DNA of 64,000 nucleotides from a virus. How positions within the stretch are numbered: position 1 is the stretch's first letter; each line of letters opens with the position of its first letter. The notes beneath the pieces are model-generated. The model searched no databases, was not told the DNA's origin, and was given only the letters and a program-made list of their open reading frames with translations. The DNA lies in the IMG/VR virus record IMGVR_UViG_3300005253_000144, positions 38,175 to 102,174 of that record. One strand, given 5' to 3'. Of the stretch, positions 9,764 to 35,440 are shown piece by piece. Made by a program: the position numbers and the translations under genes.

Positions 9764-9799
9764 ATTTTTCGGTTTTTAAGGTTCACTTCTTTTCTTAGG

Positions 9800-9944
9800 A
9801 TTGAATATTTTCTTAGGCCGACAGGACTTGCACCTGTGACCTCCGTGCTTTTGGCAACGGTGCTCTATCAGCGCTACTTACTTGGCCGGGAGCGACCCAT
9901 TCTTTCGGCACCTATCTGAGCTACAGCCTAAGAAAATATTCAAT
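9800..9944 (-). ncRNA. tRNA-like RNA with 52-nt D-loop and extended acceptor stem
   Basis: TAGGCTG-TA-GCTC...GAGC-A-CCGT...ACGG-AGGTC-ACAGG-TGCAAGT-CCTGT-CGGCCTA cloverleaf (9813-9930) inside a perfect 19-bp inverted repeat (9800-9818/9926-9944). Confidence 0.75.
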
Positions 9945-9968
9945 TATTAATTTTCTGAATTCCATGTA

Positions 9969-9997
9969 ATATTACCATTTGCGCTATAATTTGTCAA
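9969..9997 (-). promoter_or_regulatory. sigma70-type promoter with TATAGC spacer box, upstream of the 9.5-9.9 kb ncRNAs
   Basis: TTGACA-AATTATAGCGCAAATGG (17 nt)-TAATAT. Confidence 0.75.
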
Positions 9998-24151: not shown

Positions 24152-24802
24152 TTACTTGGGAAAATCCTTATGCTTAATCTTGGTAATTATGCGGTTGCCG
24201 CGCCGATTAAGTAATTCAACTTCAGGGCGCATCACCATTCCTTCTGCTTGGAAGTCCCCCCAGCGGGACATAAATCCATTCCTGGTTTGCTCCACAGCAG
24301 TATACAAATTGCCTTGGCCGATAATAGGCGTAATTTGCAACCCCAGTTTTTCTGCGACGTCTTCAACGTTTTCGCGTTCTAAGAACATTTCACCGACCTT
24401 TACATCAAAGAGGCAAAAGTCAACACCATCAGAAATGTAATTCCCGCCGCCTTTTTGAATCCGTGCCCCAAACCCTTCGCCGTAGAGACAAACACCAGTG
24501 TCATAATCAAAGGCATTCTGTACGTTTTCCAAAGTGAACACCTCTTGTAATTTGCTTTCCAGGAACGGTGGTATCTGTGCTTTATCGGTCTTACCGCCAA
24601 ATCGTATTCCTTCAGCATCATACATTACTCGAATGTTAGTGCCGTCTACCTTTTCGGTAAATACCCAATTGTTGCTTTTGAGATAGTCGAATTCAGGATG
24701 TGCAAATTCGTCTAACAATGTCTTGTAATTATTAGTTGGGTCTCGCTTGTAAACTGTTGTGATTTTATGATATGGGTACATCGGGTATTTGCGGTCGGGC
24801 AT
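24152..24802 (-). CDS. ATP-dependent RNA ligase (Rnl2-like nucleotidyltransferase domain)
   Basis: Motif I TEKVDGTN, III LYGEGFG, IIIa FCLFDV, IV EGMVMR, V ITKIK. Confidence 0.88.
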   Translation of the reverse strand: MPDRKYPMYPYHKITTVYKRDPTNNYKTLLDEFAHPEFDYLKSNNWVFTEKVDGTNIRVMYDAEGIRFGGKTDKAQIPPFLESKLQEVFTLENVQNAFDYDTGVCLYGEGFGARIQKGGGNYISDGVDFCLFDVKVGEMFLERENVEDVAEKLGLQITPIIGQGNLYTAVEQTRNGFMSRWGDFQAEGMVMRPEVELLNRRGNRIITKIKHKDFPK

Positions 24803-27163: not shown

Positions 27164-28528
27164 CTAATCCCCATCATCAGCGCGGCCGCCCATAATAACA
27201 ACTTGCGGTTCAAGGCGCGCTACCCGATTAATAAGCAGGCCGTCCTGAATCGCCATTACATCTTCAATATCCTTATATGCCTGGATAGTTTCATCTGAGG
27301 CAACGCCATGATAAGAAATATTTTTGTCCTCCATGTGCTTTTTGAATTTTGCCTCGGAGTGCACCCGCTTGGCCTCTGTGCGCGAGTAGGGGCGGCCAGC
27401 ACCATGCGCGGATGAAAATAATGCCTCAGGGTTTCCTAGCCCACTAGTTAAATAACTTGGAGACCCGCTCGTACCGGGGATAAGTCCAATCTCATCCTTA
27501 TGTGCTGGCGTTGCGCCCTTGCGATGGACATAATTGCCCTTTGAGTTCAACCAAGCATAATTATGTCGATTGAAAATCGTCCCGGCTACTTGCAATCCAC
27601 TAGAGCGCGCAAATGTAGAGTGGATAATTTCGTGATTGGCAAGAGCATATTCACCCATAAGCTGCATGACCTCCCAATATTCCTTTCCAGCATCTGTATC
27701 CATACGTAACCAACCATGACCCTTTGGAACATTTCTGGTAGTCGCCTTGGTTTCATTTTCGGCCATCTTTGTATAATGCGTTGCCAATTTATGACCCGTG
27801 CCGCGGCTTCCAGAATGTGTGAGCAGGCCTATCCTTTTTACCCTATGGTCCATAGGCAAAAATTCTGGAGACACATTCGCTCGGATTCGTGAAATAAGAA
27901 CTATATCAGCAAAGTGATTTCCGCCGCCGCTTGTGCCCAACTGCCGATTTGCCAAATATTGCAGGGCTTTAACTTTGGGGGCTATATTCCATTGCTCATT
28001 ATCCATGACAGCATGTTTACGCGGGGAATCAAATTCTAAACCCACACCAAACTTTGTAGATGCTTTTAAATAATCTGCGAACATCTTGCGCCTGCTAATA
28101 AACGCATTTGGTGGGATATCATACACACTTAACATGACCATGCAGGAAATGTCGAAACCGATGTAACCTGGTGAAATCGCGTTTTCCGTTTCGATGACCC
28201 CGCCAATGGGTAGGCCGTAACCTTTGTGGGCGTCCGGCATCAGCGCAGCTCTTATTGCGGGCGGTATCCGCGCGCACACTTCCATTTGGTCATAAGCGTT
28301 TTTAGGAATTAGGGCGCCGACTTTTCCAAATGTTGCGATTGGCACGGGCACATCTCGGTATGCTGGAGAAGTATCCTTTCCGAATTTCTTTTCGACCGCC
28401 TCTAATATCTGTTCCGGGTCATTGCCGAGTTCCCCGGTCAGGCTCGCGGCGTACTTGGCAATTTCAGGATACCCGCGCCGTGAATGATATTCCTTTAGCA
28501 ATTCATGCGTGTTGATTCTTTTTGTCAT
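27164..28528 (-). CDS. rtcB: RtcB RNA 3'-phosphate/5'-OH ligase
   Basis: MPDAHKGYGLPIG, GFDISC, GGGNHF, HSGSRG, HRKGAT, SSAHGAGR. Confidence 0.95.
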   Translation of the reverse strand: MTKRINTHELLKEYHSRRGYPEIAKYAASLTGELGNDPEQILEAVEKKFGKDTSPAYRDVPVPIATFGKVGALIPKNAYDQMEVCARIPPAIRAALMPDAHKGYGLPIGGVIETENAISPGYIGFDISCMVMLSVYDIPPNAFISRRKMFADYLKASTKFGVGLEFDSPRKHAVMDNEQWNIAPKVKALQYLANRQLGTSGGGNHFADIVLISRIRANVSPEFLPMDHRVKRIGLLTHSGSRGTGHKLATHYTKMAENETKATTRNVPKGHGWLRMDTDAGKEYWEVMQLMGEYALANHEIIHSTFARSSGLQVAGTIFNRHNYAWLNSKGNYVHRKGATPAHKDEIGLIPGTSGSPSYLTSGLGNPEALFSSAHGAGRPYSRTEAKRVHSEAKFKKHMEDKNISYHGVASDETIQAYKDIEDVMAIQDGLLINRVARLEPQVVIMGGRADDGD

Positions 28529-29065: not shown

Positions 29066-30817
29066 CTAAATGTCTCCTATCGCATTCTCGTAAAATACAT
29101 CACTGGCGCGTATTTCTTTGGTCCCGGTTATCAACTCTAATATGCGCAATTTACTCAGTGCGTTATTGAACCCGCCGCTGGTTACCTGATAATCCGTCAT
29201 TATGGCTATCATTTCCTTGGATAGGCTCTTCGGATATTCATCACAAAGTACGGCTAATATTCTTCGCTGTGCGCGGCCCAATTTCCGTTTCCAATATTCT
29301 ATCAACTCCTGACCAACGGGTAAAGGCGCGTATTCTTCCCCCAAGGCTTCAAACCCGCTATCCGTGATTATAAACTTTCCGAGGTTATCCACCTCCATAA
29401 ATCCAGAGATTTTAAGATTGCTTAAAGCATTTGCAAACCCTCCGCTATTGATTGAATAACTGGTAAGAATAGCGATTTGTTTCTTGTTCTTTGTGTTTGG
29501 ATGATGCTGTGCAAGAGTTCTTAATATCCGATTCTGCGCACGGGGCAACTTATCACCATCAAAATTTGGGAGCGTATTGTTTGCTATTGGCTGCATACTA
29601 GGGCGAAGTGTGCTGGTCTCTACTTGTGACGCCCTTGCCATCTTCTCCATTACCACTTTGCCACTGGCCTCCTGCTTCTTCATCCCAAGGATTATCTGGT
29701 CAATAGTTTTGGGCAGGTTTACGAATTCCTTTGTAATGGTAGTCAACTTCGTAGATAACTCTTGCAACGCTTCATAGGTTTCTTCAGGAACAAACGGAAC
29801 TCGCACAGGAACTTTGGTTTCAATATTCTTAATTACGGTATTAGGCGTTGCTACTATTTTCTCCGATGCCTTCGCCTTCCGGCGTGCTTTAGCAATATCG
29901 CGTTTCAGTTCTGTGTTCTCGGTCTGTAACTGCACCAATAGGTCGGTTTCCCTTTGCGCCTCCTGGGGCAAATCCCCCATTTGTGAAACCAATGTTAATA
30001 TCGCCTTCGATGCTGGCGGAACTCTCATTTTGAATCGTTCACCTTGTTTGGGATGCGTGCTTTTAACTTTGTCAGAGCGGAACTCCACAACACCTGCCAT
30101 GGAAAGGGCTGCCCCAAATGTATAAAACATTCCAGGTTTCAAATTACGCAACTCCATCCGCTTGGTTTTGCCCATACCCAATAGGTCGCCTGCCCGCTTT
30201 TGGTCAATATCTAAGGCTGTGCGCCCGATAATGATATTGTTTGCTTCGGCCGCGGCGTCTTTATGTAACTTGCTTAATCGCTGCGTGGAAAGGATTCCAG
30301 CGTAGCCACGCTTACGCCCCTGCGACATCAGGGCGATAACCGCCTCCGAACTTTCCGCACTTCCTGCAGAGCGTTCTGGGCAGTAGACATGCGCTTCATC
30401 TAAGATTACCAAGATAGGATGCCAATATTTACGCGGCAAATTCATCAAGCTATCTAAGAACAGCTTCACATAAGTTCTACGGTCAGCTAGTTTCAAATCG
30501 TACAAATCGATAATCGCGCTTATCTCTTTCTCTGCCAATTTGCGCGCTAACAATTTTGCCGTCTTGATAGTGGTGGCCAATTCGCCATCATTGCCAATAA
30601 GAGCAATGGTAATCTCTTCCCTTAATGTTATAAACTCTCCCTCCGGGTCCAAAATAATGATTTGGACATCTGCCGCCGTTCTTTCCGCGATAAGACGTAG
30701 TAGCCAAGACTTTCCCCCGCCGCTGTTTGCTGACACCAGCATACGTGTGTCAATCAGTTTTGGGAGGTCAATTTTTAATTGCTTATCCTTTGCGACTTGC
30801 CCAATTACGAATTGCAT
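29066..30817 (-). CDS. HerA/FtsK-like (DUF87) P-loop ATPase with coiled coil and two C-terminal winged-helix repeats
   Basis: ANSGGGKS, ILDPEGE, ILDEAH, QGRKRG, STQR; duplicated RAQxRIL...SGGFxNALSxL. Confidence 0.85.
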   Translation of the reverse strand: MQFVIGQVAKDKQLKIDLPKLIDTRMLVSANSGGGKSWLLRLIAERTAADVQIIILDPEGEFITLREEITIALIGNDGELATTIKTAKLLARKLAEKEISAIIDLYDLKLADRRTYVKLFLDSLMNLPRKYWHPILVILDEAHVYCPERSAGSAESSEAVIALMSQGRKRGYAGILSTQRLSKLHKDAAAEANNIIIGRTALDIDQKRAGDLLGMGKTKRMELRNLKPGMFYTFGAALSMAGVVEFRSDKVKSTHPKQGERFKMRVPPASKAILTLVSQMGDLPQEAQRETDLLVQLQTENTELKRDIAKARRKAKASEKIVATPNTVIKNIETKVPVRVPFVPEETYEALQELSTKLTTITKEFVNLPKTIDQIILGMKKQEASGKVVMEKMARASQVETSTLRPSMQPIANNTLPNFDGDKLPRAQNRILRTLAQHHPNTKNKKQIAILTSYSINSGGFANALSNLKISGFMEVDNLGKFIITDSGFEALGEEYAPLPVGQELIEYWKRKLGRAQRRILAVLCDEYPKSLSKEMIAIMTDYQVTSGGFNNALSKLRILELITGTKEIRASDVFYENAIGDI

Positions 30818-31201: not shown

Positions 31202-32605
31202 TCATTGGTAAATCCGTCCCCAAGCTTCGTCCAGCTTTTTGGCACTCCATATATTGGGGACATATTCAATGAGCGGCGCATCATGGTAGCTGCTGATGGC
31301 GGCTGTGCCTTCAACCGCATCCAAGTACATTGAAAATCTACCCTCGCCTTCAACGACTAAAATATCTGGTATCTCGGCCGCGTCAAGCACATCCTTATAC
31401 TGCTCCACAAAAGCGGTATCTACTGAAAGCCTTCCAGCACTCAGCAATATTTTTGGGGTTATATCCTGTTCCTTTTCCTCAAAGTCTGCCCCACGCCCAA
31501 CGTTTTTGAATCCGAGTAGCGTGAGTGGCAAGCCATGTTCTTTACATTCTTCGATTACATAAGAAATCTTATCACTATAATGTGCGCCCACAACAAAATG
31601 GGCAACACCGCGCAGACCAAAGGCATCGTTAAGACCGGCTATATTTTTAACATCGTAGTGATTGTCAAGAGAGAGCGCATATGAACCTGCATATTCTCTT
31701 ACAGCTCGCAGGACTTCATGGCTCCATTTATCGGGCCGGATAAAGGTCGTGAAATTTGGGATGATGTCCAATTCTCTCGCCCTTTTAAGGATGGCCGGGA
31801 AATCTGGATGCAGCGTTGGCTCCCCGCCGCCAATGGCAATTTCAAACACGCCGCGCGCAGATAAGACTTCTAAATATGTTTCGATAGTTTCATAATCGGC
31901 ATGGTTGCCAGCAATGGTGCTGTCTTGATAACAGAAAGCACAATTGGCCGGGCAATAGTTGGTTATCTTCAGGTCAACCAATTCCGGAGTCGCCGAGCGT
32001 AGCAATTCATTCGGCTTTTTATCAAAGGATAACCTTAACTTCGCCCCGGTTACTTGATTAAACAATGTCCACCAATGGCCTGATTTCTTGGCAAGATAAT
32101 TACTGCCATCGACCTCTCCCAGCATTCTTAGTTCCCAATCGATGGTATCCCTGGTCTTATGCTCTCCCCATTCATCCGGGTCATCGCCATTATCATTGCC
32201 GCCCAATACCATAATATCTGGGCGTTGGAGATAATCGCGGAAGTCTTTAATAAATGCGGTTGAAAGGCGTTTTGTATATGCATCGCGCGGGAAGCCTAGG
32301 TGAGATTGATGGTCAACATATGCGCCTTCAATTTCTTCAACTTCCATTTTTTTCCCTACCAATTCAGATATGATAACTGCGGCAAGGTCTTCGCCCATTT
32401 CCTTTACGATGGCTTGATAGACTTGGGCTATGAAATAATCCATTTTGGGTCCTGGGTCAGAAAGCACAAAACATTCCCATCCAAATTCATATCCCATATG
32501 TCCAGGATTAGTGGGCAGGGCAGCTTTCCCCTTTGGCAATATAATGATTGAATGGCTGCTAGATGAATTTGTTGCTAAACCGAGTCTAATATTTGCAAGT
32601 TGCAT
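31202..32605 (-). CDS. Radical SAM protein with N-terminal TNSSSSHS domain
   Basis: CPANCAFC cluster motif, GGGEPTLHP; N-terminal RLGLATNSSSSHS. Confidence 0.88.
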   Translation of the reverse strand: MQLANIRLGLATNSSSSHSIIILPKGKAALPTNPGHMGYEFGWECFVLSDPGPKMDYFIAQVYQAIVKEMGEDLAAVIISELVGKKMEVEEIEGAYVDHQSHLGFPRDAYTKRLSTAFIKDFRDYLQRPDIMVLGGNDNGDDPDEWGEHKTRDTIDWELRMLGEVDGSNYLAKKSGHWWTLFNQVTGAKLRLSFDKKPNELLRSATPELVDLKITNYCPANCAFCYQDSTIAGNHADYETIETYLEVLSARGVFEIAIGGGEPTLHPDFPAILKRARELDIIPNFTTFIRPDKWSHEVLRAVREYAGSYALSLDNHYDVKNIAGLNDAFGLRGVAHFVVGAHYSDKISYVIEECKEHGLPLTLLGFKNVGRGADFEEKEQDITPKILLSAGRLSVDTAFVEQYKDVLDAAEIPDILVVEGEGRFSMYLDAVEGTAAISSYHDAPLIEYVPNIWSAKKLDEAWGRIYQ

Positions 32606-32936: not shown

Positions 32937-32938
32937 AG

Positions 32939-33011
32939 CTGCCACGGAAGGATTTGAACCTTCAACCTCGCGATTAACAGTCGCACGCTCCACCAATTGA
33001 GCTACATGGCA
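32939..33011 (-). tRNA. tRNA-Asn (GUU)
   Basis: Full cloverleaf TGCCATG...CTGTTAA...GGTTCAAATCC...CGTGGCA-G; G73; CCA not encoded. Confidence 0.95.
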
Positions 33012-33012
33012 A

Positions 33013-33180
33013 TGGTGACAGACCGCGACCTCGATTACGGCCAGCACCTCACGAGACGGAGTACGCTACTTTTGAGACCTGTGCTGAATGGCCGCTTCCA
33101 ACACATGGTAGCAATTCCACTGGCGGCCGGGACAGTATAGGAATCTCACTTAAGCCTCACTGGTTTTCCGGCGGCCTGTC
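33013..33180 (-). ncRNA. 168-nt tRNA-like RNA ending in ACCA
   Basis: Terminal stem GACAGGCCGC/GCGGTCTGTC + ACCA; internal arms GGCCGC/GCGGCC and CAGCAC/GTGCTG; exactly fills the tRNA-Met to tRNA-Asn gap. Confidence 0.75.
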
Positions 33181-33182
33181 AA

Positions 33183-33258
33183 TAGCGGAGGCGGGAATCG
33201 AACCCGCGTAGGTCCAGGTTATGAGCCTGGCAAGCAAGCCAACATGCTCAACTCCGCG
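33183..33258 (-). tRNA. tRNA-Met (CAU), initiator-like
   Basis: Cloverleaf with CTCATAA loop, C1xU72 mismatch and A11-U24; anticodon stem CCAGG/CCTGG has only two of the three initiator G-C pairs. Confidence 0.9.
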
Positions 33259-33259
33259 A

Positions 33260-33330
33260 TGTTGAGAGGGCAAGCACATAGGGGTTATGTAAAAATAAAA
33301 ATACTATGTGCCCATTCGTTGGCCCTCTCA
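33260..33330 (-). ncRNA. Small rod-like RNA between tRNA-Pro and tRNA-Met (Y-RNA-like stem)
   Basis: TGAGAGGGC/GCCCTCTCA and GCACATAG/CTATGTGC helices, asymmetric bulge, U-rich apical loop. Confidence 0.55.
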
Positions 33331-33331
33331 G

Positions 33332-33405
33332 TCAGGATGGTAGGATTTGAACCTACGCCCTCCTGGTCCCAAACCAGGCGTTCCACCGGACTGAACTACA
33401 CCCTG
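33332..33405 (-). tRNA. tRNA-Pro (UGG)
   Basis: CAGGGTG...TTTGGGA...GGTTCAAATCC...CATCCTG-A cloverleaf; C1-G72, A73. Confidence 0.95.
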
Positions 33406-33429
33406 AATGTTAGACAAAAGATAGTCTTT

Positions 33430-33696
33430 TTAATTCTCTAGCGAAAGACGGATAATGTACAACTCTTCCTTCATATTCTTTACCTCTTTAACCTGCCTCG
33501 CAATTTTGCCAGCCAAGGGACATAGCTCTGATATAGGCTCTTTTTCACTCCCAGAGGTCGTCGAGGTTAGCTGTATGGATATTGCGTTTTCCAACCGTGT
33601 ACGCAATTCATCAATTGCTGGACGTAACTCAGCCAGTGCATCCTCTAAATATGAAATCTGAGCCGTTACTTGTGATTCTTGTACTGCTTCGTTCAT
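33430..33696 (-). CDS. Small coiled-coil protein inside the RNA cluster
   Basis: 88-aa ORF with AAGGA RBS and heptad pattern. Confidence 0.65.
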   Translation of the reverse strand: MNEAVQESQVTAQISYLEDALAELRPAIDELRTRLENAISIQLTSTTSGSEKEPISELCPLAGKIARQVKEVKNMKEELYIIRLSLEN

Positions 33697-33725
33697 TTTG
33701 ATATCCTTTCAAATAAATTTCGTTT

Positions 33726-33872
33726 AGATACTCAGATGGTGGCGGCAGCCAGGCCTCGCACGGTTTCAACCTGGGTCACTTTCAACATTCGTCTGCCGGC
33801 TATCCTCCCGTGCTCTGGGAGTCTTGATTACTCGTAACGCTTTAGTCGCCTTCCGCCACCACTTGAATATCC
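33726..33872 (-). ncRNA. Structured RNA with tRNA-like 3' end (CCGCC-ACCA)
   Basis: Outer stem GGATATTCA/TGAGTATCT (two G-U pairs on minus strand), inner TGGTGGCGG/CCGCCACCA, CCAGG/CCTGG arm before the acceptor-like strand. Confidence 0.6.
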
Positions 33873-33878
33873 TTCTTA

Positions 33879-34105
33879 TTGGATGCTCACTATGGGCGAG
33901 GAAGGGCTGACACCTATCGCCTTCGCCCATCCTCTCATTCTCTCTGGGCGTTATCCCGCTCTAATCAGGAAAACTTACGTATGCTTTACCGATTGCAGTT
34001 CAAACCCCTGCAACTAGGTAAACAGCCTTGATAGGATTTCCGTTACTAAGGGGCCTCTGTCAGACTAGAGCAACACGCCACTATATGCCCATAGTGAGCA
34101 TCCAA
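33879..34105 (-). ncRNA. 227-nt structured RNA closed by a perfect 19-bp stem
   Basis: ttggatgctcactatgggc (33879-33897) / gcccatagtgagcatccaa (34087-34105); inner helices GCTCTAGTC/GATTAGAGC, TTTACC/GGTAAA, TTGCAG/CTGCAA. Confidence 0.7.
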
Positions 34106-34124
34106 ATGTTAATGTTCTGGGGAG

Positions 34125-34197
34125 ATTGAATATCCAGGAAAGCGGTGGGATGAAATGTTGGCCGCATCCCATCCCGCCGCCGTCTCGGACATTCAAT
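34125..34197 (-). ncRNA. Small structured RNA/hairpin
   Basis: ATTGAATGTCC/GGATATTCAAT 11-bp stem (G-U only on minus strand), inner TGGGATG/CATCCCA. Confidence 0.55.
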
Positions 34198-34201
34198 TTG
34201 T

Positions 34202-34256
34202 GAGGGGGAAGGCCAGCTAACAAAGATTGTAAGTCTAATGCTTAGCCTTCCCCCTC
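34202..34256. ncRNA. 12-bp GC-rich hairpin with structured loop
   Basis: gagggggaaggc/gccttccccctc perfect inverted repeat. Confidence 0.5.
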
Positions 34257-34294
34257 TGTTGTAAACAAGGGCTTCCCTGCCCTTGCATACTGTG

Positions 34295-34456
34295 CGGGTA
34301 TTGTGATTAACGATTGCGCCAATTTCTATACCGATGCTCTATCGACTGAGCTACGGACCCCAATATAAACAAACCATTCTTGATTTGCTTATGGAGGGTC
34401 CAGTGGGACTCAAACCCACGACCTTCGGTTCTCATTGCTGTCGTTTATCACACCCG
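34295..34456 (-). ncRNA. Circularly permuted tRNA-like RNA (YrlA/Y-RNA-type architecture)
   Basis: tRNA 3' half with CCA (34429-34392) precedes a 31-nt hairpin linker and then the 5' half (34360-34330); acceptor GGGTCCG/TGGACCC; anticodon arm replaced by a long terminal duplex. Confidence 0.85.
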
Positions 34457-34519
34457 TGGGTGCTGACGCTATTGGAGTAATACGCTTATCTGATTCTTAA
34501 GCGGAGGCTCACAATAACG

Positions 34520-35275
34520 TTACTCCTTAATTTCTCGGGTCTCGATATAGGCAAACAGCTTTGCGGCCATGCCGATGCTATCAGGTTTTGTTTCGATGTC
34601 ATTGGCACGCTGCCGCGCCTTTTTGACTTCATATAACAAATTGTCAAGGCGCCCCAATCGGTCCCGCTTGTCCACAATGGTTATCATACCGGATTGGCTG
34701 ACGGTTTCCCATTCGCCAACTTTGGCATCCTCGTTGTAGGGTTGTACCTGCGCCGGATGTTCAAGCGTGGCCTCATACAAGACATGGGTTTTCATTTGTT
34801 TCTTCATTCGGTTGGTAATAACCGGGTCAGAAACATAGATACCCTTTTGCTCATCGAAATCCCATTTTTGACCGGGAGGAAGCGTGGGGATGGCTTCATA
34901 AACCCTGCGTAATTCTGCCAGCTTCCCTTCCAGATTCAGCAATGCTGTGGCTGGCAATTCTCCAAGCAGTGGCGTGCCATCAATTAATATCGTGTCCCTA
35001 GCTTCGGTATTGGCAATTTCTTTACCAACCGATACGTCAATCCAGGCACCGACTTGCTCAAAGACGCGCGCCAACTCTGCCTCTACCGTAGTAGCAAGTT
35101 CAGTGTGCTCTTCCGGGTAAGTATCCTCTCCCTCAACAATCAACTGATATTTGCGGAACTGCCCCAAGAAATGGGCTTGTCCCGCATCAAATAATCCCCG
35201 GACCTCATTGATTATTGCTGTCGCCTTACCTCGCAAATCCGGTTCAACCGCTAATAGTTCGTACAACTTTGTCAT
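34520..35275 (-). CDS. Helical 251-aa protein of unknown function embedded in the ncRNA operon
   Basis: AAGGAG RBS; MTKLYELLAVE start, LPATALLNLE, YEATLEHPAQV, VKKARQRAN motifs; I recognise the style as a widespread uncharacterised family but cannot confirm a name. Confidence 0.85.
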   Translation of the reverse strand: MTKLYELLAVEPDLRGKATAIINEVRGLFDAGQAHFLGQFRKYQLIVEGEDTYPEEHTELATTVEAELARVFEQVGAWIDVSVGKEIANTEARDTILIDGTPLLGELPATALLNLEGKLAELRRVYEAIPTLPPGQKWDFDEQKGIYVSDPVITNRMKKQMKTHVLYEATLEHPAQVQPYNEDAKVGEWETVSQSGMITIVDKRDRLGRLDNLLYEVKKARQRANDIETKPDSIGMAAKLFAYIETREIKE

Positions 35276-35295
35276 GCTGAAACTCCTTTCGTTAA

Positions 35296-35400
35296 TTGGG
35301 TGCTCAACTGGTGGCGTGTCGGTTTCTCACCGACGGCAACGCGCTGTTGATATTCACCAATCCGCTATATGCTTTCCGCCGCCACCACCTCAATATCCAA
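35296..35400 (-). ncRNA. Leader RNA with T-arm-like hairpin and CGCC-ACCA end; related to 33726..33872
   Basis: TGGTGGCG/CGCCACCA stem; GTCGG-TGAGAAA-CCGAC 5-bp stem/7-nt loop; sits between the promoter and the ORF RBS. Confidence 0.6.
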
Positions 35401-35411
35401 AGTGAATGACA

Positions 35412-35440
35412 AATATATCACTTACGCTATATATAGTCAA
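35412..35440 (-). promoter_or_regulatory. sigma70-type promoter with TATAGC box heading the ncRNA/tRNA operon
   Basis: TTGACT-ATATATAGCGTAAGTGA (17 nt)-TATATT. Confidence 0.75.

What the first reader, a model, noticed from the sequence alone, without database searches (positions are those of the whole stretch)
32939..35440. Candidate new system: a phage operon of tRNA-mimic RNAs built around an uncharacterised 251-aa protein
Seen (minus strand, in order): promoter; leader RNA ending ACCA; 251-aa ORF; permuted tRNA; two hairpin RNAs; 227-nt RNA; CCA-ended RNA; 88-aa ORF; tRNA-Pro; Y-like rod; tRNA-Met; 168-nt CCA-ended RNA; tRNA-Asn. Nearly every non-coding base falls in a closed helical domain, and elements abut tRNAs with 1-2 nt gaps. 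The three real tRNAs lack encoded CCA whereas four of the odd RNAs have it. Established: RNase P and 3' trimming of flanking tRNAs can release interleaved RNAs, and bacterial Y RNAs normally partner Ro60 and often sit near rtcB. No Ro60/TROVE gene is visible in this window. Inference: a ribonucleoprotein or decoy system in which tRNA-shaped RNAs titrate host tRNA-targeting defences or tRNA sensors, with the 251-aa protein as a possible cognate RNA-binding partner.
Basis: partly seen in the sequence, partly recalled or inferred. Interest (0 to 1): 0.9.

Follow-up and report, generated by a model that had tools for sequence, protein, structure and literature searches.

The report
Phage tRNA-mimic RNA partnered with DUF7873
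A phage gene of unknown function (DUF7873) is followed by a back-to-front tRNA look-alike RNA, a pairing that recurs in almost every relative of the gene in phages and bacteria without the Ro60 protein that normally partners such RNAs, so it is probably an undescribed RNA-protein machine; the other odd RNAs around it are local extras.

Summary
Every listed element is present on the minus strand. The solid core is the 251-aa ORF, which is Pfam DUF7873, and the "permuted tRNA" 73 nt after its stop. That RNA runs T arm, 7-bp acceptor-like stem, UCCA, linker, D arm, on a long stem with no anticodon loop. This is the topology of YrlA-class Y RNAs.

My covariance model finds such a head just downstream, on the same strand, in 158 of 160 related loci. 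It also finds one in 27 of 27 confident genes from family-defined samples of two bacterial phyla. No neighbouring protein is conserved.

Ro60/TROVE is missing from this phage, from 46 of 50 other DUF7873 phage records and from 15 of 37 host genomes. Where Ro60 exists it has its own adjacent RNAs with a different stem signature.

The heads carry RNase P substrate features. DUF7873 has no known fold and is predicted to form a homodimer.

The other elements are lineage-specific. A close relative lacks the 227-nt RNA and the 88-aa ORF and has a damaged "Y-like rod". Only the permuted unit has T and D arms.

The protein-RNA partnership is supported; binding and the decoy role are untested. This scan met the same pair before on other DNA; I found no paper on it.

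The parts
35412..35440 (-). Promoter-like site, TTGACT-17-TATATT with an upstream TG
   Evidence: Matches 10 of 12 consensus positions. This is a consensus match only.
35276..35400 (-). Structured 5' leader of the DUF7873 gene. Its closing stem GGUGGCG/CGCCACC is followed by A (ACCA); the ribosome-binding site is GAAAGGAG.
   Evidence: Fold z is -1.95, which is weak. There is one compensatory U-A to C-G change in the closing stem against L165, where the tail reads GCCA. Its two ends resemble those of the CCA-ended RNA.
34520..35275 (-). DUF7873 gene, 251 aa
   Evidence: Pfam PF25283 matches at E=4.6e-69. There is no PHROG, PADLOC or NCBIfam match. A word-index search gave 706 homologues. The AF2 model has pLDDT 86 and no clear PDB relative. 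Homodimer prediction scored 0.54, with the best control at 0.00.
34457..34501 (-). 5' part of the RNA: a short hexamer run CUUAAGAAUCAG and the conserved box GUAUUACUCCAAUAGCGUCAG
   Evidence: The box recurs about 70 nt 5' of the strong head in related loci. Hexamer runs (NNUNAR)n are enriched after DUF7873 genes.
34290..34475 (-). Permuted tRNA-like (YrlA-like) domain on an interrupted stem. Lower stem 34425-34429/34330-34334; variable loop AGGUC 34420-34424; T arm 34403-34419; acceptor 3' strand 34396-34402; UCCA 34392-34395; linker hairpin 34361-34391; acceptor 5' strand 34354-34360; U8A9 34352-34353; D arm 34336-34351.
   Evidence: R1 scores 75.8 bits. Rfam YrlA scores 33 bits over model positions 23-85. 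Fold z is -3.65. There are two compensatory changes in the acceptor stem against L165. A19 (34342) pairs with U56 (34412), and this swap recurs in L007 and L070. Duplex between the flanks: -29.3 kcal/mol, z -2.5.
34200..34300 (-). Two hairpins, with stems of 8 bp and about 18 bp
   Evidence: Fold z is -5.65. Against L165 there is 1 compensatory change, 4 one-sided changes that keep the pair, and 1 broken pair. Not found in other loci.
34106..34200 (-). Long imperfect hairpin
   Evidence: Fold z is -5.60. It is 93% identical in L165. Only chance-level miRNA matches in Rfam.
33879..34105 (-). 227-nt RNA with a 19-bp closing stem. It is an insertion relative to L165; the inserted bases are about 33873-34094.
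   Evidence: Fold z is -7.09. It is absent from L165. Its far end is complementary to 11 nt of the pre-existing flank. There is no other copy in the phage.
33724..33872 (-). CCA-ended multi-branch RNA; a closing stem of about 19 bp is followed by ACCA
   Evidence: Fold z is -4.41. It is 94.6% identical in L165, with 2 compensatory changes in the closing stem. A further copy's 3' end lies upstream of the L165 gene. It has no T or D arm.
33430..33696 (-). 88-aa ORF, coiled-coil-like, with its own ribosome-binding site
   Evidence: Listed. It has no family match. It is absent from L165, so it is not a conserved partner.
33331..33405 (-). tRNA-Pro (UGG), with no encoded CCA
33260..33330 (-).
   Evidence: Fold z is -5.81. 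In L165 the 5' half of the inner stem, including CGAAUG, is missing. It has no Ro-type motif.
33182..33259 (-). tRNA-Met (CAU), atypical, with no encoded CCA
   Evidence: ARAGORN finds it. Rfam tRNA scores 34.3 bits.
33012..33181 (-). 168-nt RNA with an 11-bp terminal helix followed by ACCA; it ends 1 nt before tRNA-Asn
   Evidence: Fold z is -1.77, which is weak. Its 5' 78 nt are 86% identical in L165, where it follows a tRNA-Arg; a G.U pair in the helix becomes A-U there. It has no T arm.
32938..33011 (-). tRNA-Asn (GUU), with no encoded CCA

Best explanation
The region is the head of a phage tRNA/small-RNA operon. Its conserved core is a two-part module: the DUF7873 gene and, co-transcribed just downstream, a Y-RNA-like tRNA mimic.

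**Shown.** The RNA head copies the top half of a tRNA. It has a T arm, a D arm with the elbow pair, U8, and a 7-bp acceptor stem. It sits on a long stem where the anticodon arm would be. This gene-RNA pairing is close to universal for the family and does not depend on Ro60.

**Inferred, step 1.** Host RNase P cuts 5' of G+1 of the acceptor stem. The linker is then trimmed back to the encoded UCCA. This gives a nicked two-piece RNA with a true CCA end, as was shown experimentally for M. smegmatis YrlA.

**Inferred, step 2.** A DUF7873 dimer binds the non-tRNA part of its own RNA, that is the stem, the conserved 5' box and the hexamer repeats. This would form a Ro60-independent ribonucleoprotein.

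**Inferred, step 3.** The exposed tRNA-like head lets the particle engage machinery that recognises tRNA, such as processing, modification, repair or surveillance enzymes or the ribosome. In a phage this could protect or tune the tRNA supply during infection.

The other structured RNAs are lineage-specific spacer or stable RNAs of the tRNA operon, released by tRNA processing. They are comparable to RNAC and RNAD of the phage T4 tRNA region and are not part of the conserved module.
For: **Gene-RNA pairing**
- R1 hits lie on the gene's strand, about 0-800 nt past the end of the protein match (counted from the rows), in 79 of 80 viral and 79 of 80 bacterial loci. The two misses have no downstream DNA.
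- In evenly drawn, family-defined samples, all 8 genes in Actinomycetota and all 19 confident genes in Planctomycetota have the RNA.
- The cultured phage RHph_TM16 has the RNA in an unannotated gap.
- No protein neighbour is shared by more than 12 loci.

**Structure of the head**
- The T stem is paired in 100% of cells and the acceptor stem in 98.5%. All 7 acceptor pairs covary; no shuffle in 500 reached the observed score, and slid-partner controls reach only 36-48% pairing.
- All three units with U56 have A19.
- The flanks of each head tend to pair with each other; median z is -1.9 over 122 units.

**RNase P-type features in 124 units**
- The stem is 7-8 bp in 101 units.
- G+1 occurs in 97 and U-1 in 58.
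- NCCA sits at positions 73-76 in 57, against about 1.8% expected by chance.
- Precedent: M. smegmatis YrlA is cut by RNase P in vivo and gains CCA (PMC4201824).

**Independence from Ro60**
- There is no TROVE in this phage, in 46 of 50 DUF7873 phage records, or in 15 of 37 host genomes.
- In genomes with both proteins, Ro60 has its own adjacent heads. Ten of 14 of these carry GGGUUAUCG, against 2 of 124 DUF7873-linked heads.

**Protein**
- The homodimer prediction scored 0.54, with the best control at 0.00. That mark was reached by 20 of 30 proteins solved as pairs and 1 of 23 solved as single chains. Run agreement was at least 23% of contacts, and partner pLDDT at least 65.

**Extras are not core**
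- T4 RNAC and RNAD are the precedent for such RNAs (PMC3014915).
Against: - There are no transcript, end-mapping or binding data.
- Adjacency alone does not prove binding.
- DUF7873 has no recognisable RNA-binding fold.
- In this phage the base before G+1 is G, not U. Only one head is present, while many relatives have two.
- The window has only a stump of the hexamer array.
- My strict test for the published Ro-binding motif failed on the positive controls. The stem difference therefore rests on a motif chosen after the fact from 14 sequences of a few lineages.
- R1 also scores tandem real tRNAs at 40-50 bits, so weak hits are ambiguous.
- An RtcB ligase 6 kb away suggests an RNA-repair link, but only 2 of 50 other DUF7873 phage records encode one.
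Confidence: 0.5

Rival explanations
1. Ordinary Y RNA. The RNA is a YrlA that works with the host's Ro60, and DUF7873 is an accessory or unrelated neighbour.
For: - The head has YrlA topology and gives a sub-threshold YrlA match.
- Some phages and genomes carry TROVE near DUF7873: L092, L012 and L070.
- The host of this phage is unknown, so its Ro60 status could not be checked.
Against: - Fifteen of 37 DUF7873 genomes, including 7-11 Mb actinomycetes, show no TROVE.
- Ro60 genes have their own adjacent heads with a distinct stem motif.
- YrlA did not reach Rfam's gathering score in the window or in 12 related loci.
- The RNA tracks DUF7873, not TROVE.
Confidence: 0.08
2. Cis-acting 3' element. 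The tRNA-like structure serves only the DUF7873 mRNA, for example by RNase P cleavage that defines or stabilises its 3' end. It has no trans role and does not bind the protein.
For: - The RNA is always downstream on the same strand.
- No terminator lies between gene and RNA here.
- The head has RNase P substrate features.
Against: - A simple processing signal would not need a D arm, an elbow covariation, two heads, a conserved 5' box and hexamer arrays, or several hundred bases of structure.
- Conservation across at least 8 phyla points to a function for the RNA itself.
Confidence: 0.15
3. Anti-defence decoy. The CCA-ended tRNA mimic soaks up host toxins or sensors that target tRNA, and DUF7873 stabilises or delivers it.
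For: - In phages the module often lies in tRNA clusters; 35 of 80 viral loci have a tRNA within 2.5 kb.
- This phage also encodes RtcB and an Rnl2-like ligase.
- NCCA is encoded mostly in the phage versions.
Against: - The module is single-copy and sits at the same place across Glycomyces, Actinomadura and Nostoc chromosomes, among ordinary genes.
- The head has no anticodon loop, so it cannot decoy anticodon nucleases.
- There is no PADLOC match.
- RtcB is rare in other DUF7873 phages.
Confidence: 0.15
4. Toxin-antitoxin pair of the RNA-antitoxin kind, with DUF7873 as the toxin and the RNA as its inhibitor, or the reverse.
For: It is a self-contained two-part module that moves between phages and bacteria with no fixed neighbours.
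Against: - In known type III systems the RNA comes first and is made of short tandem repeats. This is recalled from memory, not tested here.
- The tRNA-like fold would be unexplained.
- There is no PADLOC match.
- Inheritance within genera looks stable and vertical.
Confidence: 0.05
5. True permuted or split tRNA gene that is rejoined, for example by the phage RtcB, into a decoding tRNA.
For: - The 3' half precedes the 5' half, CCA is encoded, and the variable loop AGGUC is canonical.
- RtcB lies 6 kb away.
Against: - The anticodon stem runs on into a long interrupted duplex with no 7-nt loop.
- The discriminator base is not conserved: T 21, A 15, G 13, C 8.
- ARAGORN calls neither a tRNA nor a tmRNA here.
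- RtcB is absent from 48 of 50 other DUF7873 phage records.
Confidence: 0.02

Closest known systems
YrlA-class bacterial and phage Y RNAs with Ro60/Rsr (Rfam RF02553; Chen et al. 2014, PMC4201824)
   Same: - The head has the same permuted order: T arm, closed acceptor-like stem, D arm, on a long stem.
- The elbow is tRNA-like.
- M. smegmatis YrlA also has a 7-bp acceptor stem, is cut by RNase P and gains CCA.
- Tandem RNAs lie next to the partner gene.
- My model R1 detects both classes.
   Different: - The neighbouring protein is DUF7873, not a TROVE protein.
- The stem lacks the signature seen in Ro60-adjacent RNAs of the same genomes.
- Rfam's gathering score is not reached.
- CCA is often encoded.
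- A 5' box and hexamer repeats are present.
- The module occurs in genomes and phages without Ro60.
tmRNA with SmpB, including two-piece (permuted) tmRNAs
   Same: - It is a tRNA mimic without an anticodon arm that works with a dedicated small protein.
- In permuted tmRNA genes the T arm and CCA end precede the 5' acceptor strand, and the loop between them is removed. This point is recalled from memory.
- There is a weak Rfam beta_tmRNA match at 16 bits.
   Different: - There is no tag reading frame, no G3.U70 pair and no pseudoknot series.
- ARAGORN finds no tmRNA.
- A true D arm is present.
- DUF7873 is unrelated to SmpB by family search.
Circularly permuted tRNA genes of red algae. This is recalled from memory, not tested.
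   Same: The 3' half lies upstream of the 5' half, with CCA and a linker between them.
   Different: There is no anticodon loop, so no decoding tRNA can result.
RNAC and RNAD, small stable RNAs of the phage T4 tRNA region (PMC3014915)
   Same: Non-tRNA small RNAs of unknown role are interleaved with phage tRNA genes. This is the best analogy for the 168-nt, CCA-ended and spacer RNAs here.
   Different: This is an analogy, not membership.

Membership tests
Pfam DUF7873 (PF25283) | A full-length match above the curated cut-off of 27 bits | tested here: met
   The ORF scores 233.3 bits at E=4.6e-69, covering residues 1-244 of 251.
YrlA (Rfam RF02553) | tRNA-like domain in the order T arm, closed acceptor-like stem, D arm | tested here: met
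   The local YrlA match covers model positions 23-85. Covariation supports the T and acceptor stems, and A19-U56 supports the elbow.
YrlA (Rfam RF02553) | Rfam gathering score of 69 bits | tested here: not met
   The window scores 33.1 bits. None of 12 related loci reached the cut-off.
YrlA (Rfam RF02553) | Ro60-binding stem motif (published as GNCGAAN0-1G) | tested here: inconclusive
   The strict motif occurs in 3 of 124 units against 6.2% of control windows. It also failed in 0 of 15 Ro60-adjacent controls, so it does not discriminate. A motif chosen after the fact, GGGUUAUCG, occurs in 10 of 14 Ro60-linked units and 2 of 124 DUF7873-linked units.
YrlA (Rfam RF02553) | Encoded next to a Ro60/TROVE gene | tested here: not met
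   There is no TROVE in the phage record. TROVE occurs in 4 of 50 other DUF7873 phage records and is not among the conserved neighbours.
tRNA (Rfam RF00005) | Cloverleaf in standard order with an anticodon loop | tested here: not met
   This holds for the permuted unit: ARAGORN and Rfam tRNA do not call it, and its lower stem continues without a loop. The three flanking tRNAs do meet the feature.
tmRNA (one-piece or two-piece) | Tag reading frame, G3.U70, and detection by ARAGORN or Rfam | tested here: not met
   ARAGORN finds no tmRNA. Rfam beta_tmRNA scores 16 bits against a cut-off of 84. The pair at 3:70 is G-C.
Known anti-phage defence or counter-defence proteins (PADLOC) | A match of DUF7873 to any model | tested here: not met
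   No families matched.

The most novel reading that the evidence does not exclude
DUF7873 and its RNA may be a third lineage of protein-partnered tRNA mimic, beside tmRNA-SmpB and Ro60-YrlA. In this reading a protein dimer grips a repeat-bearing stem. RNase P then opens the head into a CCA-ended, perhaps aminoacylated, tRNA top half. That half plugs into translation or tRNA quality control, and both large-genome bacteria and phages use it.
Probability: 0.22. Interest if true: 0.85.

Novelty: new variant of a known kind. Interest (0 to 1): 0.7.

Why it matters
- tRNA-shaped non-coding RNAs with dedicated proteins are rare and have been informative. tmRNA-SmpB showed how stalled ribosomes are rescued, and Ro60-Y RNA showed how structured RNA is degraded.
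- This is a widespread, strictly coupled gene-RNA pair. It occurs in at least eight bacterial phyla and in cultured phages of Rhizobium, Gordonia, Arthrobacter, Vibrio, Klebsiella and Ralstonia.
- It is unannotated in GenBank records and absent from Rfam, and I found no literature on it.
- The question is directly testable in existing laboratory phage-host pairs.
- It may also explain why phages place such RNAs inside their tRNA clusters.

Tried and rejected
**Searches that led nowhere**
- Fold searches of the DUF7873 model gave no answer. Foldseek against PDB had no hit at E<=0.001. The VIA-align 2 wide search of PDB representatives gave a best Z of 7.4, from generic helical bundles. BFVD gave nothing.
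- A PDB sequence profile search found nothing.
- The ESM Atlas returned only unnamed clusters scoring about 0.8.
- I looked for a second tRNA-like head in the window. R1 with filters off and a pattern scan of the whole phage found none.
- I looked for relatives of the other odd RNAs. blastn against 160 loci found none. There are no other copies in the phage. A 27-nt pattern gave no hit in viral contigs. A 16-base pattern gave 35 hits, about the number I expect by chance for 16 bases in a collection of that size (my own rough estimate), and I did not pursue it.

**Ideas tested and dropped**
- An RtcB or RNA-repair link as a general rule is rejected: RtcB occurs in 2 of 50 records.
- A phage CCA-adding enzyme was sought and not found.
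- The strict Ro-motif test is invalid because it failed on the positive controls.

**Literature**
- I found no paper naming DUF7873 and none on this pairing.
- Burroughs and Aravind 2016 and the 2020 Ro60 review are not held in the library, so I could not read them.

Full report
**What is there.** The window is part of a 102-kb IMG/VR phage record estimated at 91% complete. All genes in the region run on the minus strand.
- ARAGORN and Rfam confirm tRNA-Asn (32938-33011), tRNA-Met (33182-33259) and tRNA-Pro (33331-33405). None has an encoded CCA, and the phage encodes no CCA-adding enzyme.
- A promoter-like TTGACT-17-TATATT sits at 35440-35412. No terminator-like site follows on this strand until the end of tRNA-Asn, so one transcription unit is plausible but not shown.
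- The 251-aa ORF (34520-35275) is a full-length member of Pfam DUF7873 at E=4.6e-69. It has no match in PHROGs, PADLOC or NCBIfam.

**The permuted tRNA.** Seventy-three bases after the stop lies a unit whose order is as follows (coordinates under parts):
- a lower stem strand, then the variable loop AGGUC;
- a T arm, then a 7-bp acceptor 3' strand, then UCCA;
- a 31-nt linker hairpin, then the acceptor 5' strand, then U8-A9;
- a D arm, then the other lower stem strand.

The lower stem continues as a long interrupted duplex, and there is no anticodon loop. The minimum-energy fold reproduces this arrangement with z -3.65. Rfam's YrlA model matches only the tRNA-like part, at 33.1 bits against a cut-off of 69. 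This is therefore the topology of the YrlA class of bacterial Y RNAs.

**Is it conserved with the protein?**
- A word-index search found 706 homologues of the protein.
- I fetched 80 viral and 80 bacterial loci around relatives that are 31-54% identical.
- A crude T-loop-to-D-arm pattern already hit about 60 loci, 150-300 nt after the gene.
- I aligned 39 such units. The T stem is paired in 100% of cells and the acceptor stem in 98.5%, and all seven acceptor pairs show compensatory changes. None of 500 shuffles reached the observed score, and slid-partner controls reach only 36-48% pairing. The selection pattern fixed only the T loop and D arm, so the stem covariation is independent evidence.
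- A covariance model (R1) finds a hit on the gene's strand, about 0-800 nt past the end of the protein match (counted from the rows), in 79 of 80 viral and 79 of 80 bacterial loci. The two misses end before any downstream DNA.
- Those loci were chosen by peptide patterns, so I repeated the test on evenly drawn genomes searched with the Pfam model. In Actinomycetota, 8 of 401 genomes carry the gene and all 8 have the RNA. In Planctomycetota, 19 of 301 genomes carry the gene, and all 19 confident full-length genes with downstream DNA have the RNA. Two borderline matches below 30 bits do not.
- Clustering of all neighbouring ORFs found no protein family shared by more than 12 loci.
- The RNA is thus the only constant neighbour of the gene. 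Many loci have two heads in tandem; this phage has one.

**Tertiary and processing signatures.** I examined 124 units, after removing hits that overlap real tRNAs.
- The acceptor stem is 7-8 bp in 101 units.
- G+1 occurs in 97, U-1 in 58 and U8-A9 in 98.
- NCCA occupies positions 73-76 in 57, against about 1.8% expected by chance.
- Three units, from the window, L007 and L070, have U instead of C at T-loop position 56. All three have A instead of G at D-loop position 19. This covariation of the elbow pair argues for a real L-shaped fold.
- These are the determinants of a bacterial RNase P substrate. That reading rests on established knowledge of RNase P and was not tested here.
- Chen et al. 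showed that M. smegmatis YrlA, which has a 7-bp acceptor stem, is cut by RNase P in vivo and in vitro and acquires CCA (PMC4201824).
- I therefore infer cleavage between 34361 and 34360 and trimming to CCA at 34392, which would give a nicked two-piece RNA.

**Relation to Ro60.**
- TROVE is absent from this phage, from 46 of 50 other DUF7873 phage records, and from 15 of 37 host genomes, including 7-11 Mb actinomycetes.
- In genomes that have both proteins, R1 finds separate heads next to the TROVE gene and next to DUF7873.
- The published Ro motif, used as a strict pattern, failed even on these Ro60-adjacent controls. That test is uninformative.
- The Ro60-adjacent RNAs share a stem box, GGGUUAUCG, in 10 of 14 cases. 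It is almost absent from DUF7873-linked units, at 2 of 124. This motif was chosen after the fact and comes from a few lineages.
- DUF7873-linked RNAs have their own features. One is a box U(A/U)UU(G/A)C(U/C)CC...AG..U.AG about 70 nt 5' of the strong head; in the window it reads GUAUUACUCCAAUAGCGUCAG. The other is an array of period-6 repeats (NNUNAR)n just after the stop codon. Runs of three or more occur in 56% of 158 loci against 2.4% of shuffles. The window has only two repeats.
- Heads are shared between the two classes while stems are class-specific. That is what one expects if each protein reads its own stem, but it remains inference.

**The protein.**
- The AF2 model is confident, with pLDDT 86. 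It shows long helices and a long beta hairpin.
- It has no convincing structural relative and no PDB sequence relative.
- A homodimer prediction passed its mark, scoring 0.54 with the best control at 0.00. That mark was reached by 20 of 30 proteins solved as pairs and 1 of 23 solved as single chains. Run agreement was at least 23% of contacts and partner pLDDT at least 65.
- This supports but does not show dimerisation. A dimer would suit the two-headed RNAs.

**The other RNAs.** Two close relatives were found: L164, which is 99.8% identical, and L165, whose protein is 90% identical. Against L165:
- The 227-nt RNA is missing. In the window it is an insertion whose far end pairs with 11 nt of the older flank to build the 19-bp stem.
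- The 88-aa ORF is missing.
- L165 instead has a 33-codon hydrophobic ORF inserted after the hairpins.
- The spacer 'rod' has lost the 5' half of its inner stem, including the CGAAUG that suggested a Ro site.
- A tRNA-Arg precedes the 168-nt RNA.
- Compensatory changes give modest support to the acceptor stem (2), hairpins 1-2 (1), the CCA-ended RNA (2) and the leader's closing stem (1).

None of these RNAs has a relative in the 160 loci or a T arm. The leader and the CCA-ended RNA share their ends, and L165 has a further copy upstream. They form a small local family. I read all of them as spacer or stable RNAs of a phage tRNA operon, in the manner of T4 RNAC and RNAD, whose roles are unknown (PMC3014915). 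They are not parts of the DUF7873 module.

**Context.**
- RtcB (27164-28528) and an Rnl2-like ligase (24152-24802) lie downstream.
- RtcB is found in only 2 of 50 other DUF7873 phage records, so a repair link is not general.
- In phages the module often sits among tRNA genes.
- In bacteria it is single-copy among ordinary genes.

**Known or new?**
- I found no paper naming DUF7873 or describing this pairing. Two possibly relevant reviews could not be read.
- GenBank records leave the RNA unannotated.
- Earlier agents of this scan reported the same pair on other DNA. My tests agree with them and add several points: unbiased sampling, the elbow covariation, the RNase P feature counts, the comparison with Ro60-adjacent RNAs in the same genomes, the dimer prediction and the repeat array.

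**Verdict.**
- The core is a new, Ro60-independent variant of the Y-RNA-like tRNA-mimic theme.
- Binding, processing and function remain to be shown.

Noticed in passing
window 9797-9940 (minus strand), promoter-like TTGACA-17-TAATAT at about 9968-9996: A separate tRNA mimic in standard order, apparently driven by its own promoter. It has a 19-bp extended acceptor stem, a D arm with an insert of about 45 nt, an 18-nt arm without an anticodon loop, the variable loop AGGUC, and a T arm with loop UGCAAGU. There is no CCA. R1 scores only 9 bits.
   Followed up: partly
related loci, first 5-60 nt after the DUF7873 stop codon (e.g. L026, L028, L059, L086, L113); window 34490-34501: Arrays of period-6 repeats (NNUNAR)n, that is NAG or NAA triplets every six bases. 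Runs of three or more occur in 56% of 158 loci against 2.4% of shuffles. They may be a binding platform for a multimeric protein.
   Followed up: partly
window 33873-34094 compared with L165:1495-1503: The 227-nt hairpin RNA is an insertion relative to a close relative. It builds its closing stem by carrying a sequence complementary to the older 5' flank UUGGAUGCUCA. Its origin is unknown, and there is no other copy in the phage.
   Followed up: partly
L165:1306-1407: The relative carries a 33-codon hydrophobic ORF (MFVEMWFALFVFLLGIATGIQIAKWLVKTGWLN) with a ribosome-binding site, inserted among the hairpins where the window has none. The small-RNA region appears to be a hot spot for small insertions.
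   Followed up: no
window 24152-24802, 27164-28528, 29066-30817, 31202-32605 (all minus strand): Downstream genes include an Rnl2-like RNA ligase, RtcB, a HerA-like ATPase and a radical SAM protein with weak viperin-like matches. RNA repair enzymes are thus present in this phage.
   Followed up: partly
L092 8964-9073 (minus strand) and a weak TROVE ORF about 1.3 kb from the DUF7873 gene; also L012 and L070: In a few loci a Ro60-like gene with its own tRNA-like RNA lies within a few kb of the DUF7873 module. The two systems can therefore sit side by side.
   Followed up: partly
G019:C82:34286-34430 and G036:C1:2009900-2010044: R1 hits of about 60 bits lie next to neither DUF7873 nor TROVE in two actinomycete genomes. 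They could be tandem tRNAs or a further class of tRNA-like RNA.
   Followed up: no
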